A stretch of DNA of 64,000 bases, taken from NCBI GenBank assembly GCA_017427485.1, contig JAFRSR010000154.1, forward strand, positions 18,426-82,425. The letters run 5' to 3'. A program made the translations under genes and the position numbers. Shown here piece after piece: positions 14,693-17,600 of the stretch; the stretch's first letter is position 1; the number at the start of each line of letters is the position of its first letter. The DNA is from Kiritimatiellia bacterium. Lineage in GTDB: Bacteria > Verrucomicrobiota > Kiritimatiellia > RFP12 > UBA1067. The notes under the pieces were generated by a model, which did no database searches, had not been told where the DNA came from, and was given only the letters and a program-made list of their open reading frames with translations.

Positions 14693-17600
14693 ATGAAAAC
14701 AACATGCAGAAGGTTTGTGTCTGCGCGGGTTGCCGCCTGCGCGCTTGCGACGGGATTCGTTGCCGTTGTGTGCGGTGCGTCGCCCGAGGCGGATCCGCAG
14801 GTGAATGAGATCAACCGCCTGCCGGCGCGCACCTACTCGATGCCGCTCGCGTCCGTGGAGGAGGCGTTCACGCCTGAGGAGCCGACGTCGAAATGGGTGA
14901 TGTCGCTGAACGGAGAGTGGCGCTTCCACTGGTGCGGCGAGCCCGCGCAGAAGCCGGAGGGTTTCGAGCGCGCGGACTTCGACGACTCCGACTGGCAGAC
15001 GATCGACGTGCCGTCGTGCGTGGAGATGCGCGGCTACGGCGTGCCGCACTACACGAACGTGACGTATCCCTTCAAGAAGGATCCGCCCGTCATCCGCGAC
15101 TTCGTGACCGGCGCGACGAACTACAACCCCGTCTCCAGCTACCGGCGCACGTTCGCCGTGCCGTCCGACTGGAAGGGGCGGCGCGTGATCCTGCGCTTCG
15201 ACGGCGCGGACTCCGCGGCCTACGTGTGGCTCAACGGGACGTTCGTGGGGTACACCGAGGACGCGCGCCTCCCGGCGGAGTTCGACGTGACGGACGCGAT
15301 TATTTCGGACACGCCGTCCGATCCCGCCGGTAGGGCGCGGCCTCCGGACGCGCCGCAGCGCGTCCCTCCCAATGTGCTCTGCGTGCAGGTGCTGCGCTGG
15401 TGCGACGGGTCGTACCTGGAGGACCAGGACATGTTCCGCATGTCGGGGCTCTACCGCGACGTATCGCTCTTCGCCGTGCCGAAGAACGGCGTGAAGGATT
15501 TCCACGTGGTGACGGACGTGGATTCTGTGCGCGTGGAGGTGGAGACCTACGGCGAGGCTGCCGTCTCGGCGGCGCTCTACGACGCCGAATACACGCGCGT
15601 TGCGACGGGCGAAGGCCGTCAGACGGTGCTTCGCCTTTCGAATCCCCGGCTGTGGTCGGCGGAATATCCCTATCTCTACACGCTTGTCGTGAAGGCGGGT
15701 GAGGACGTGCGCACGTGCAAGGTGGGCGTGCGGAAGATGGAGATCCGCGGCAACGTGCTCTATTTCAATGGGCAGCCGCTCAAGGTCAGGGGCGTGAACC
15801 GGCACGAGATGACGCCTGACGAGGGACATGTTGTTTCGAAGGAGGTCATGCTCAAGGACATCCTGCTCATGAAGCGGCACAACGTCGACGCCGTGCGCAC
15901 GAGCCATTACCCGAACCACCACACGTGGTACGCGCTCTGCGACCGCTATGGCATCTACGTGATGGCCGAGGCGAACGTGGAGTCGCACGGCATGGGCTAC
16001 AAGAAGCAGGCGCTCGGGCGGCAGCCGGAGTGGGAGAAGCCGATCGTGGAGCGCAACGTGCGCAACGTGCAGAACTACCGCAACCACCCCTCGGTCTTCT
16101 GCTGGTCGCTCGGAAACGAGGCGGGGCCGGGCGAGGCGTTCGAGGTGGCGTACGCGGAGGTGAAGCGCCTCGACCCCTCGCGTCCGGTCCACTACGAGAG
16201 CGGCGGACGCGACTACGCGAGCGGCACGGGGCGTCCGTTCTGCGACATCGACTCCATCATGTACCCGTCGCCCGACTACGTGCGCGAGCGCGCGGAATGG
16301 GGCGAGGGCAAGCGTGCCGAGGCGCCGCTCTTCCGGGGCAGCAAGCTCATCCAGGACCGCAACCACCCGCACATCGTGTGCGAGTACGCGCATTCGATGG
16401 GCAACTCGCCGGGCAACCTGAAGGAGTACTGGGAGGCGTTCTGGTCGTCGCCCGTCAACTGCGGCGGATTCGTGTGGGACTGGGTGGACCAGGGCCTCTG
16501 GAAGTACACCGACCGTATCCTGCCCGATGGCACGCGCGACCGCTTCGTTGCGTATGGGGGCGACTTCGACGAGCAGCCGAACTCGGGTCCATTCTGCTGC
16601 AACGGCCTCGTCGGCGTGCAGCGCGAGCCCACGCCCAAGTTGATGGAAGTGGCGCACGTGCACCGTCCGCTCGTCGTGACGGCCGCCGAAGCCGCCACGG
16701 GTGAGGCCGAGCTCTGGAACCGTTGCCTGTTCACGCGGGCGGACGCTTTCGTGGGCGCGTGGGAACTGCTGGCGGACGGTGTGCGCGTGGACGGCGGCGC
16801 GCTCGCGGTGTCGCCAGTGGAGCCGCTGGCGCGCGGACGGCTCGCCCTGCCGAAGCCGAAGGTGGAGATGAAGCCAGGCGTGGAATACTTCTACAACGTC
16901 ACGTTCAGCCTGAAGGCGGACACGTCGTGGGCGAAGGCCGGCCACGTGGTGGCACGCAACCAGCTGGCGTATGGGACGGGTGAGATGAAGCGGCGAGACG
17001 CCGCTTCCCCCAGTGGTAGGGCGCGGCCTCCGGACGCGCCGCCCGCCGTTGCTGAAACGGCCGAGGTGGTGACGGTGCGCTTCGCGGACGGCGAGGCGGT
17101 GTTCTCGCGCGCGTCGGGCACGCTGTCGAAGTTCGTGCTGGGCGGCAAGCTGCTGTTGCAGGATCGGTCGGGCGTGGTGACGGGGCCGCGCCTCACCGTG
17201 GTGCGGGCGTTCGTGGACAATGATCGGATGAAGTACGGCAAGGCGGCCTTCGACGGCGGCATGACGCAGCTGCGCTACCATGCCAAGCCGTATCGCGTGG
17301 CGAAGAACGCGGACGGTTCGGTCACGGTGACGGCGCGCGTGACGGTGAACGGCTCGAAGTCGGGCGGGTTCGAGCACGTGGCGGAATGGACGTTCCGTCC
17401 GTCGGGACGGATCACCGTGAAGCACGACGTGACGCCGTTCGGCGCGGTGCCGATCCTGACGCGCCTTGGCATGACGTGGCGTCTGGAGCCGTCGCTGGAG
17501 AAGGTGGCGTACTACGGGCGCGGGCCGTGGGAAAACTACGTCGACCGCATGGAAGGAAGTCTGTTCCGCGTGTGGGAGACCACGGTCAAGGACATGTTCG

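What the first reader, a model, noticed from the sequence alone, without database searches (positions are those of the whole stretch)
15329..17042. Identical 28-nt GTAG+hairpin (REP-like) element inserted twice, in frame, inside the GH2 beta-galactosidase gene; founding pair of an intragenic palindromic-element family
GGTAGGGCGCGGCCTCCGGACGCGCCGC occurs at 15329-15356 and 17015-17042 with unrelated flanks. Both copies translate as GRARPPDAP. The unit is GGTAG, then a GC stem, a 3-4 nt loop, the complementary stem, then GC. Five more copies share this architecture but carry different, mutually compensating stem sequences. They lie at 18051-18078 (reverse), 23128-23154, 24865-24893 (reverse), 57383-57402 and 57405-57433. 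Every copy lies inside a CDS and is in frame. Forward copies read G-R-A...A-P and reverse copies read G-R-P-P-Y-R. The one forward frame that would read the TAG as a stop is never used. A conserved GTAG 5' of a GC hairpin is the signature of REP sequences mobilised by RAYT (TnpA-REP) tyrosine transposases, yet REPs are extragenic by definition. The known precedent for in-frame palindromic insertions is the Rickettsia palindromic elements. In LacZ, copy 1 sits in the loop before the conserved [14 protein letters not shown] strand. That segment is about 19 aa longer than E. coli [21 protein letters not shown] as I recall it. Copy 2 sits in the linker before the C-terminal domain. Both positions are therefore structurally permissive.
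Basis: partly seen in the sequence, partly recalled or inferred. Interest (0 to 1): 0.8.

Follow-up and report, generated by a model that had tools for sequence, protein, structure and literature searches.

The report
In-frame REP hairpin elements inside genes
Short GTAG-tagged hairpin repeats (REP elements, normally found between genes) sit in frame inside at least five enzyme genes of a rumen-type Kiritimatiellae bacterium, in loops, linkers and post-signal-peptide segments; the same thing was described in 2013 for the related bacterium Opitutus terrae, so this is a clean new example rather than a new phenomenon.

Summary
The 28-mer GGTAGGGCGCGGCCTCCGGACGCGCCGC occurs exactly twice, in the GH2 gene. 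Four more GGTAG-plus-hairpin copies and one GTGG-tagged hairpin lie in four other genes. Their stems co-vary, and all of them are inside real coding sequences.

They are GTAG REPs. The identical 25-nt core occurs in 32 loci of Kiritimatiellae and Verrucomicrobiota genomes with unrelated flanks. In three of those genomes it directly flanks a RAYT (REP-associated tyrosine transposase) gene.

Close orthologues lack the inserts. GH2 site 1 is +39 nt relative to an 88%-identical orthologue. The HZS-like protein carries +33 nt, present in 3 and absent in 6 relatives. An AlphaFold model puts both GH2 copies in low-confidence coil.

The novelty claim fails. Di Nocera et al. 2013 (PMC3733652) list about 70 in-frame GTAG REPs in Opitutus terrae (same PVC superphylum), including one in a GH2. 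No RAYT lies in this window, and mobilisation in this genome is inferred.

Verdict: a new member of a known kind, most likely a tolerated passenger. Side points of modest interest:
- a GH2 linker colonised by three hairpin families in different lineages;
- a REP at the GH28–GH127 fusion joint;
- an exact REP core shared by RAYTs only 43% identical.

The parts
15329..15356 (+). GTAG REP copy 1 (GGTAG + 6-bp stem, G·A mismatch, 2 bp, TCC loop). It lies in GH2 at aa 213-222 and reads [10 protein letters not shown].
   Evidence: Exact 28-mer. DNA hairpin of -10.7 kcal/mol. It is part of a 39-nt insertion absent from the 88%-identical orthologue in L001. pLDDT is below 50 in coil between strands 195-198 and 227-234.
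17015..17042 (+). GTAG REP copy 2, identical to copy 1. It lies in the GH2 linker between LacZ_4 and Bgal_small_N at aa 775-784.
   Evidence: L003 (84% aa identity) has GGAAG|CGTGCCGCC here. That is 15 nt shorter, with REP-like ends kept. The segment 763-780 has pLDDT below 50.
18051..18078 (-). GTAG REP with a perfect 9-bp stem (GGCGGTCGC-CCC-GCGACCGCC). It lies in the PFL-like glycyl-radical enzyme at aa 22-31 (AAVAGRPPYR), just after a TAT-like signal.
   Evidence: A homologue in L039 has the same kind of N-terminal signal but no REP.
23128..23154 (+). GTAG REP of the 'partner' type (GGTAGGGCGGGGCGTCCTCGACCCGCC). It lies in the HZS_alpha-like CxxCH protein at aa 923-931 (GRAGRPRPA).
   Evidence: An 11-aa insert is present in the window, P0245 and P0247. 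It is absent in six relatives of 76-89% identity. DNA of a filled (L039) and an empty (L038) site is. The same sequence is the inverted partner of the 25-mer in REP doublets elsewhere.
24865..24893 (-). GTAG REP with a perfect 9-bp stem. It lies at the joint between the GH28 and GH127-like halves of one protein (PRRPEGRPPYR).
   Evidence: GH28 homology ends before it and GH127-like homology starts after it. It sits in an 18-aa segment that stand-alone homologues lack.
57379..57402 (+). GTGG-tagged perfect hairpin (GCAGGGCG-CCCT-CGCCCTGC). It is in head-to-tail tandem with the next element, in the beta-lactamase-fold protein.
   Evidence: A GTGG variant of the tag is reported for O. terrae GTAG-20. 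Membership of the same family is inferred, not shown.
57405..57433 (+). GTAG REP with a perfect 9-bp stem. It is read in the GTA-GGG-CGC frame (VGRAVSSAPQ), and the tandem pair spans aa 22-39 after the signal peptide.
   Evidence: The gene start at 57319 is supported by AAGGAG and by the gene on record.
15346..15370 (-). Older GGAG-tagged hairpin (GGGAG-GGACGCGC-TGCG-GCGCGTCC, read as DAPQRVPP). REP copy 1 inserted into it.
   Evidence: It is present without the REP in L001 and in several orthologues as DAQQRVPP or DAQERVPP. GGAG is the second commonest tag next to long hairpins in the loci. Its 5' arm overlaps the 3' arm of REP copy 1.
16987..17013 (-). CTGGGG-tagged hairpin (GAAGCGGCG-AGA-CGCCGCTTC + CCCCAGT) lying directly 5' of REP copy 2 in the GH2 linker.
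   Evidence: It is also present in L003. Related CTGGGA-tagged hairpins occur three times in tandem at the same linker in L001.
54398..54426 (+). CTGGGA-tagged hairpin (CAACGGGCG-TCT-CGCCCGTTG) in a GH43 gene after the signal peptide, read as PTGTTGVSPVA.
   Evidence: The peptide resembles the O. terrae GTAG-19 peptides GTGVSPV and GTGVPPV. This is a lead only.
14693..17935 (+). Host gene: GH2 beta-galactosidase, 1080 aa.
   Evidence: All five GH2/LacZ Pfam domains are found. Glyco_hydro_2_N is split into two stretches by copy 1. PDB LacZ alignment is and the AF2 model.

Best explanation
**What it is.** These are GTAG-type REP elements: 27-29-nt non-autonomous units made of a GGTAG tag and a GC hairpin. 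The family is recognised and processed as single-stranded DNA by a RAYT (TnpA-REP, a HUH/Y1 enzyme) encoded elsewhere in the genome.

**How it came to be in genes.** This lineage is very gene-dense, about 95% coding, so most landing sites are inside genes. The copies that persist share three features:
- the net length change is a multiple of three;
- the reading frame is open and gives a Gly/Ala/Pro-rich peptide rather than an Arg-rich one;
- the position is a surface loop, an interdomain linker, a C-terminal tail or the stretch after a signal peptide.

The elements are therefore tolerated passengers. They add 5-18 residues of disordered loop. They can be lost again by small deletions inside the palindrome.

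**Shown.** Identity of the element, hairpin covariation, association of the identical core with RAYT genes in other genomes, presence/absence among orthologues, frame bias, and position in low-confidence loops.

**Inferred.** That a RAYT acts in this particular genome, that insertion is RAYT-catalysed, and that the inserts are neutral.
For: **Element and hairpin.**
- The 28-mer occurs twice against 0 expected. GGTAGGGCG occurs 7 times against 0.45 expected.
- Across the window and fetched loci, 64 of 170 GTAGGG sites have a perfect stem of at least 6 bp starting right after GTAG. About 29 of about 135 remain once the copies used to fetch the loci are removed. Nine control tags gave 0-3% each, 28 of 1709 in total.
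- On 19 distinct variants, 93.6% of cells pair, against 35-53% when the partner is slid. Seven of 9 pairs change on both sides. The two innermost pairs were not part of my selection and show 8 and 10 compensatory changes with none unpaired.

**Spread.**
- The exact 25-mer is in 32 loci of Kiritimatiellae and Verrucomicrobiota MAGs. Flanks are unrelated beyond g-core-g.

**RAYT link.**
- RAYT genes lie directly beside or between copies of that 25-mer in L009, L023 and L027. They score 85-89 bits on NCBIfam NF047646, 'REP-associated tyrosine transposase', above the cut-off of 80.
- A Pontiellaceae (Kiritimatiellota) RAYT is flanked by GGTAGGGCGG...CCGCC REP doublets.

**Insertion polymorphism.**
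- GH2 site 1 is +39 nt relative to L001.
- The HZS-like insert is +33 nt, present in 3 and absent in 6 relatives.

**Frame filter.** Of about 13 copies in genuine CDSs elsewhere, 10 read ARPEAAPY. None reads VGRGLRTR and one doubtful case reads RVRRPRPT. The host ORFs are real proteins such as an MFS transporter, a P-type ATPase, MBOAT, GH106 and an M50 peptidase.

**Permissive sites.**
- pLDDT is below 50 and the chain is coil at both GH2 sites.
- The site-1 loop is 18 aa longer than in E. coli LacZ.

**Literature.**
- TnpA-REP needs the GTAG and cuts at variable sites 5' or 3' of the REP. This fits inserts that carry extra flanking bases (PMC3333891).
- Two REP groups are known, bulged and perfect palindromes, and both forms occur here (PMC8266576).
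- In-frame GTAG REPs are catalogued in O. terrae (PMC3733652).
Against: - No RAYT gene lies in the 64-kb window. The best tblastn E-value is 0.46. The window's own genome was not in the genome collection. A cognate enzyme in this organism is therefore unproven.
- None of the indels is a clean 27-28-nt insertion. They are 39, 33, 15 and about 54 nt.
- At GH2 site 1 the target already resembled the 3' end of the element: GATGCGCAGCAG against GACGCGCCGCAG. That would also fit a homology-assisted copying event.
- At GH2 site 2 the direction of change, gain or partial loss, cannot be decided.
- No REP insertion by a RAYT has been shown in vivo, to my knowledge.
- Neutrality is assumed. No expression or proteomic data were available.
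Confidence: 0.82

Rival explanations
1. The elements are real REPs, but their spread into these genes was not RAYT transposition. It occurred by host processes acting on hairpins, such as template switching or gene conversion between palindromes using microhomology, or replication slippage.
For: - At GH2 site 1 the 3' end of the insert merges with a pre-existing hairpin of similar sequence. The best alignment leaves only 2 mismatches if the last 7 nt of the 'element' come from the target.
- Site 2 differs from L003 by a 15-nt indel bounded by GCGC direct repeats inside the palindrome.
- The indels are larger than the element.
- The window copy 1 and L017 share 10 extra nt upstream and 4 downstream.
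Against: - The identical 25-mer with unrelated flanks in dozens of unrelated genes and in two phyla is hard to obtain without a dedicated mechanism.
- Its tight physical association with RAYT genes points the same way.
- Variable cleavage sites of TnpA-REP already explain the variable extra bases.
Confidence: 0.12
2. The in-gene copies are kept because they do something. Possible roles are mRNA hairpins that pause translation after a signal peptide or protect the transcript, DNA sites for gyrase or IHF-like proteins, or useful flexible linkers in secreted carbohydrate-active enzymes.
For: - Several copies sit right after signal peptides or a transmembrane helix: window PFL-like, beta-lactamase and GH43 genes, and L030, L032 and L020.
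- The HZS-like insert has been kept across three lineages of 84-87% identity.
- One copy sits exactly at a domain-fusion joint.
Against: - Most close orthologues do without the inserts.
- The hosts are unrelated proteins.
- The positions are just those where any insertion would be tolerated.
- Both orientations occur.
- The frame bias is explained by avoidance of Arg-rich peptides.
- No Rfam family matches.
Confidence: 0.06
3. The inserts are ancestral loop sequences or chance look-alikes, or the gene calls are wrong and the elements are really intergenic.
For: - Three window copies lie near N-termini, where start codons are often miscalled. Di Nocera et al. give the same caution.
- High-GC genomes have many spurious ORFs.
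Against: - Both GH2 copies, the HZS-like copy and the GH28/GH127 copy have homology on both sides.
- The N-terminal copies follow recognisable signal peptides. For the beta-lactamase gene the start has a strong Shine-Dalgarno and is the start on record.
- Distant orthologues lack the residues.
- Chance expectation is about 0.
Confidence: 0.02

Closest known systems
Intragenic GTAG REPs of Opitutus terrae and other bacteria (Di Nocera et al. 2013, BMC Genomics 14:522, PMC3733652)
   Same: - GTAG tag plus a short GC hairpin, with sub-families that have compensating stems.
- PVC-superphylum host.
- In-frame copies as singles and doublets inside known enzymes, including a GH2 (Oter_1283, aa 708-722 of 987), GH20, GH28, GH31 and GH43.
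- Some genes hit twice, and many copies near N- or C-termini.
- A RAYT in the genome.
   Different: - The host is a different phylum and class (Kiritimatiellae, rumen-type MAGs).
- The sequence family differs: GGTAGGGCG...CGCCG. I could not compare it with the paper's Figure 1 consensus sequences, which are not held.
- This work adds empty-site comparisons among close orthologues, a frame census and a structure model.
Classical REP / BIME / REPIN-RAYT systems of Escherichia coli and Pseudomonas
   Same: - GTAG 5' of an imperfect or perfect palindrome.
- High copy number.
- Inverted doublets.
- A RAYT gene flanked by its own REPs, the REPtron.
   Different: - The classical elements are almost wholly extragenic.
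- Here all six window copies are in coding sequence, as are roughly 13 of 33 copies elsewhere.
- The window copies are singletons, apart from one tandem pair.
Rickettsia palindromic elements (RPE)
   Same: They are palindromic repeats found in frame within genes for functional proteins, at permissive sites (citing refs 13 and 14 of that paper).
   Different: - The short RPE-4 and RPE-6 are classed by Di Nocera et al. as CGTC-tagged, not GTAG-tagged.
- RPE-1 is much longer, about 100-150 bp by my own recollection.
- No RAYT link is known for the CGTC class.
MITEs inserted in frame (e.g. Correia/NEMIS, ERIC)
   Same: They are small non-autonomous repeats that occasionally become part of coding sequence.
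   Different: MITEs are 70-300 bp with terminal inverted repeats and derive from DDE-type insertion sequences. The units here are 27-29 nt, with one hairpin and a tetranucleotide tag.

Membership tests
GTAG REP (RAYT-associated repetitive palindrome) | Conserved GTAG tetranucleotide immediately 5' of the hairpin | tested here: met
   GGTAG precedes the stem in 6 window copies and in all 35 copies of the 25-mer. Stems start right after GTAGGG far more often than after control tags. The 57379-57402 hairpin has GTGG instead.
GTAG REP (RAYT-associated repetitive palindrome) | Short GC-rich palindrome whose stem is kept by compensating changes between copies | tested here: met
   93.6% of cells are paired. 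Seven of 9 pairs change on both sides, and 0 of 500 shuffles reach the observed values. Slid controls pair at 35-53%. The outer six pairs were a selection criterion, but the inner pairs were not. A conserved G·A mismatch is present in 11 of 19 variants.
GTAG REP (RAYT-associated repetitive palindrome) | Many dispersed copies with unrelated flanks | tested here: met
   There are 32 loci in the genome collection plus 2 copies in the window. Flanks are unrelated beyond one G on each side. The copy number in the window's own genome is unknown.
GTAG REP (RAYT-associated repetitive palindrome) | A RAYT gene flanked by the same REP (REPtron) | tested here: met
   This is met in other genomes. L009, L023 and L027 have a RAYT beside or between copies of the exact 25-mer, scoring 85-89 bits on NF047646 against a cut-off of 80. 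L043 (Pontiellaceae) has a RAYT between GGTAGGGCGG-type doublets. Pfam Y1_Tnp scores are below cut-off, 17-19 against 23 bits.
GTAG REP (RAYT-associated repetitive palindrome) | A RAYT gene present in this same genome | not testable with these tools
   None is in the 64-kb window (best tblastn E-value 0.46). The genome is not among the GTDB representatives scanned.
GTAG REP (RAYT-associated repetitive palindrome) | Predominantly extragenic location | tested here: not met
   All 6 window copies are in CDS. About 13 of 33 copies in other genomes are in CDS by GC3 pattern, and ten such ORFs were checked by Pfam, eight with domain hits. The literature already records this exception.
GTAG REP (RAYT-associated repetitive palindrome) | Inverted doublets (BIME / REPIN) | tested here: inconclusive
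   Doublets pairing the 25-mer with the inverted 23128-type partner occur in L013, L022, L024 and L035, 5 nt apart. Doublets also flank the RAYTs. In the window there are only singletons and one head-to-tail pair at 57379-57433.
GTAG REP (RAYT-associated repetitive palindrome) | Binding and cleavage by the cognate RAYT on single-stranded DNA | not testable with these tools
   This needs biochemistry. It has been shown for E. coli, S. maltophilia and Marinomonas pairs.
Rickettsia palindromic elements | CGTC tag (short RPE-4/6) or a long palindrome of about 100-150 bp (RPE-1) | tested here: not met
   The elements are 27-29 nt with a GTAG tag. The classification of RPE-4/6 as CGTC repeats is. 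The RPE-1 length is from my own knowledge.
MITE | 70-300 bp with 15-30-bp terminal inverted repeats | tested here: not met
   The conserved unit ends one base either side of the 25-mer core, and there is a single hairpin. The definition is as quoted.

The most novel reading that the evidence does not exclude
In the very gene-dense rumen Kiritimatiellae, about 92-96% coding, several tagged-hairpin families (GTAG, GGAG, CTGGGA) may have made protein loops and linkers their main habitat. They would repeatedly colonise the same linker, as in GH2, where different families occupy it in different lineages. They would also nest into one another. In this reading they act as a standing source of length variation in secreted carbohydrate-active enzymes, and perhaps of ready-made joints for domain fusions such as GH28-GH127.
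Probability: 0.15. Interest if true: 0.55.

Novelty: new member of a known kind. Interest (0 to 1): 0.3.

Why it matters
REPs are usually treated as purely intergenic, but in PVC-group bacteria they are also a recurrent source of short insertions in proteins.

For annotation and protein-family work this has two practical consequences:
- peptides such as [17 protein letters not shown] or GRAGRPRPAE in Kiritimatiellae and Verrucomicrobiota proteins are mobile-element scars, not conserved motifs;
- they will create spurious similarity between unrelated proteins.

For mobile-element biology, the lineage offers natural filled and empty sites inside genes. An exact 25-nt REP core is also shared by RAYTs that are only 43% identical. 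Both could help to work out how REPs are inserted. None of this changes the current picture of REPs; it extends a 2013 observation to another phylum.

Tried and rejected
- **Rfam.** A scan of the whole window at gathering thresholds found no family.
- **Pfam Y1_Tnp on the RAYT candidates.** Scores were only 17-19 bits against a cut-off of 23. I therefore relied on NCBIfam NF047646 and on tblastn with published RAYTs.
- **The window's own genome.** I looked for it in the genome collection through the 25-mer. No locus carried the two copies 1.7 kb apart, so a whole-genome census was not possible.
- **Strain-level polymorphism.** L036, a second assembly of the same strain at 99.92% identity with no gaps, carries every copy.
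- **Synteny for further empty sites.** L001, L003, L037 and L038 are not syntenic beyond the query gene.
- **Beta-lactamase start.** Look-ups from 57316 (a miscount) and 57205 found nothing. 57319 is the start on record.
- **Overall hairpin excess.** The window has 31 hairpins with stems of at least 7 bp, against 18.9 in codon-block shuffles (maximum 26). This is only a modest excess, so the signal lies in the tagged elements and not in hairpins generally.
- **A 39-nt mobile unit.** The window copy 1 and L017 share GATCCCGCCG + core + GCAG, which is 39 nt. Removing that block leaves 6 mismatches to the empty site. The alternative register leaves 2 mismatches. I rejected the 39-nt unit as the inserted block and kept the shared flank as unexplained.
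- **GGTAGGGCG at 51686-51694.** It has no hairpin and is treated as chance or decay.
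Full report
**1. The observation.**

GGTAGGGCGCGGCCTCCGGACGCGCCGC is present exactly at 15329-15356 and 17015-17042. There is no further match within three mismatches, and none is expected by chance. The head GGTAGGGCG occurs seven times against 0.45 expected.

Six of the seven are followed at once by a GC hairpin:
- 15330+, 17016+ and 23129+ have a 6-bp stem, a G·A mismatch, then 2 bp.
- 18077-, 24892- and 57406+ have perfect 9-bp stems.

The seventh, at 51686-51694, has no hairpin. 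The hairpin at 57383-57402 is real, but its tag is GTGG.

The window is about 64% G+C and about 95% coding, mostly on the + strand.

**2. The copies are inside genuine genes.**

- **GH2.** Pfam finds all the GH2/LacZ domains in 14693-17935. Copy 1 splits Glyco_hydro_2_N into two stretches. Copy 2 lies between LacZ_4 and Bgal_small_N.
- **Other hosts.** These are a PFL-like glycyl-radical enzyme (17988-20348), an HZS_alpha-like CxxCH protein (20362-23658), a GH28+GH127-like protein (23690-26719) and a beta-lactamase-fold protein.
- **Beta-lactamase start.** The start is 57319. It has an AAGGAG Shine-Dalgarno and is the start on record in nine contigs. The two hairpins therefore encode aa 22-39, just after the signal peptide.
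- **PFL-like N-terminus.** Its N-terminus is a TAT-like signal, and a relative has the same kind of signal without the element.
- **Frames.** Three forward copies read GGT-AGG-GCG. One reads GTA-GGG-CGC. Both reverse copies read CCC-TAC.

**3. They are insertions.**

GH2 homologues are Kiritimatiellae and rumen-metagenome proteins.
- **GH2 site 1.** In the alignment only the window protein has [13 protein letters not shown]. The 88%-identical P0002 goes straight from DAIIS to DAQQR, and more distant homologues have a loop of E. coli length. At the DNA level the window has 39 extra bases inside an older hairpin, GAYGCGCAGCAGCGCGTC-CCTCCC.
- **GH2 site 2.** The nearest comparison, L003, is 15 nt shorter and keeps GGAAG...CGTGCCGCC. 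This looks more like a partial deletion of the palindrome between GCGC repeats than an empty site. The direction of change is open.
- **HZS-like protein.** The 11-aa block RAGRPRPAEPG is present in the window, P0245 and P0247. It is absent in six relatives of 76-89% identity. The filled and empty DNA differ by a net 33 nt.
- **GH28/GH127 joint.** The REP lies in an 18-aa segment that stand-alone homologues of either half lack.
- **Structure.** An AlphaFold model of GH2 (mean pLDDT 79) has pLDDT below 50 and coil at 207-222 and 763-780, which are the two sites.

**4. What the element is.**

- **Spread.** The exact 25-nt core was found in 32 loci of the species-representative genome collection. 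These are rumen Kiritimatiellae MAGs (nine loci in one MAG), and also Opitutales, Chthoniobacterales and Verrucomicrobiae from lakes, soil and marine biofilm.
- **Unit size.** Flanks are unrelated beyond one G on each side, so the conserved unit is about 27 nt.
- **Doublets.** In several loci it forms an inverted doublet, 5 nt apart, with GGTAGGGCGGGGCGTCCTCGACCCGCC. That is the very sequence at window 23128.
- **RAYT genes.** tblastn with published RAYTs found 145-159-aa genes directly beside or between copies of the 25-mer in L009, L023 and L027.
  - They pass the NCBIfam equivalog model 'REP-associated tyrosine transposase' at 85-89 bits against a cut-off of 80.
  - They fall below the Pfam Y1_Tnp cut-off.
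  - Two of them are only 43% identical to each other, yet they share the identical REP core.
- **A Kiritimatiellota RAYT.** A homologue from a Pontiellaceae genome sits between doublets with the same GGTAGGGCGG...CCGCC design.
- **Tag and stem statistics.**
  - Hairpins start right after GTAGGG far more often than after control tags. The figures are about 29 of about 135 unascertained sites, against 28 of 1709.
  - On 19 distinct variants the stem shows strong two-sided covariation and a conserved G·A mismatch.
- **Literature fit.** E. coli TnpA-REP needs the GTAG and a stem mismatch, and it cuts at variable sites on either side of the REP (PMC3333891). A second RAYT group uses perfect palindromes (PMC8266576).
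- **This window.** No RAYT is present in the window.

**5. Why the copies are in frame.**

- **Census.** Of the 33 copies of the 25-mer outside the window, about 13 lie in ORFs with a coding GC3 pattern. Ten such ORFs were run against Pfam. Eight have domain hits: MBOAT, an MFS transporter (central loop), an M50 peptidase (C-terminal tail), a beta-helix/FG-GAP protein, GH106, a P-type ATPase, a UGSC-family protein and a metallophosphoesterase (after its TAT signal).
- **Frame bias.** Ten of these copies read ARPEAAPY, one reads GRARPPDAP, and two orthologous ones read [10 protein letters not shown]. The Arg-rich frame VGRGLRTR is not used at all. RVRRPRPT appears once, in L006, in an ORF whose coding pattern is ambiguous. 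This is what purifying selection on random insertions would leave.
- **Density.** With 92-96% of these genomes coding, six of six copies in genes is not itself surprising. Unbiased relatives' loci (108 kb) carry only two such REPs, so the window, and especially 15.3-24.9 kb, is locally rich.

**6. Comparison with what is known.**

Di Nocera et al. 2013 (PMC3733652) defined GTAG and CGTC REP super-families.
- Their Additional file 3 lists about 70 O. terrae cases. These include a GH2 (Oter_1283, aa 708-722 of 987), GH20, GH28, GH31, GH43 and GH8 genes, genes hit twice, and doublets encoding 15-30 residues.
- They make the same argument about loops and linkers, and give the same caution about N-terminal copies.
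- They class the short Rickettsia RPEs as CGTC repeats.

I found no other paper in the held library on intragenic REPs in this group.

**7. Verdict.**

The REP/RAYT reading is supported, with the enzyme shown only in other genomes. The novelty claim is not supported.

This is a new member of a known kind: GTAG REPs tolerated in frame in a Kiritimatiellae genome. The points that go beyond the 2013 description are:
- filled and empty sites among close orthologues;
- a REP nested in an older GGAG-tagged hairpin;
- one GH2 linker occupied by three different hairpin families in different lineages;
- the frame census;
- the exact conservation of the core across two phyla.

These are of modest interest to people who work on REPs. 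They are also of practical use for annotation.

Noticed in passing
window 15346-15370; L037 10887-10906, 12387-12461; L001 1851-1870; L039 13811-13830, 15475-15494: A second family of tagged hairpins has a GGAG head (GGGAG-GGWCGCNN-loop4-NNGCGWCC). In proteins it reads as DAQQRVPP, DAINCVPP or DATSCVPP. GGAG is the second commonest tetranucleotide next to long perfect hairpins after GTAG, 14 against 16. I did not test whether a RAYT goes with it.
   Followed up: partly
window 54398-54426 and 16987-17013; L001 12236-12323 (three in tandem); L038 1560-1580: A third family has a CTGGGA/CTGGGG head and an AGA/TCT loop. It reads as TGTTGVSPV or TGETPVVPV...GRDARSPS. These peptides resemble the O. 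terrae GTAG-19 peptides GTGVSPV, TGGTPVP and GRDARAT.
   Followed up: partly
GH2 linker between LacZ_4 and Bgal_small_N: window 16960-17060 and the same place in L001, L003, L037: The same 20-40-aa linker carries different hairpin elements in different lineages. The window has CTGGGG-type plus GTAG REP, L001 has three CTGGGA-type, and L037 has three GGAG-type. It is a hot spot of recurrent, independent colonisation.
   Followed up: partly
window 23690-26719, joint at 24820-24920: GH28 and GH127-like halves are fused in one protein, with the REP exactly at the joint. Among the 150 best cluster representatives, nearly all match only one half. The GH127-like homologues start at residue 15-45 of their own sequence. 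Whether the element had any part in the fusion is unknown.
   Followed up: partly
window 17988-20348; L039 13061-15472: A PFL-like enzyme has an intact glycyl-radical motif (RVCGFSA) but a TAT-like N-terminal signal, MTRRDFIGTGAMFGAAAAAG. A relative has MQLTRKKFIGGSAALMGSAAA. An export signal on a glycyl-radical enzyme is unexpected.
   Followed up: no
L009 3454-3933, L023 4029-4466, L027 355-789: The RAYTs in L009 and L023 are only 43% identical to each other. Even so, they are flanked by the identical 25-nt REP core, so the REP is far better conserved than its enzyme across Verrucomicrobiota classes.
   Followed up: partly
L027 (CAYWZI010000341.1, 1193 nt): A contig binned as 'Microbacteriaceae' carries a RAYT and REPs. 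The RAYT protein is 86% identical to that of a Verrucomicrobiae MAG (L023). The contig is probably mis-binned.
   Followed up: no
window 15329 copy and L017 (RGIG2632, M50 peptidase C-terminus): These two copies lie in different genes and different genomes. They share 10 further nt upstream and 4 downstream (GATCCCGCCG + core + GCAG), and both read [13 protein letters not shown]. The overlap is more than chance would give but it does not match the best empty-site alignment. It remains unexplained.
   Followed up: partly
window 20362-23658 and homologues P0242, P0250-P0257: The HZS_alpha-like CxxCH protein is widespread in Kiritimatiellia and Planctomycetes. It occurs in forms of about 1090 aa and about 1650 aa. 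One of the long forms is named acetylxylan esterase by NCBI.
   Followed up: no
window 49699-49724 and 50459-50481: Two further long perfect hairpins carry no tag. One has an 11-bp stem and lies inside the 49361-50413 ORF. The other has a 10-bp stem and lies in the gap after that ORF, so it may be a terminator.
   Followed up: no
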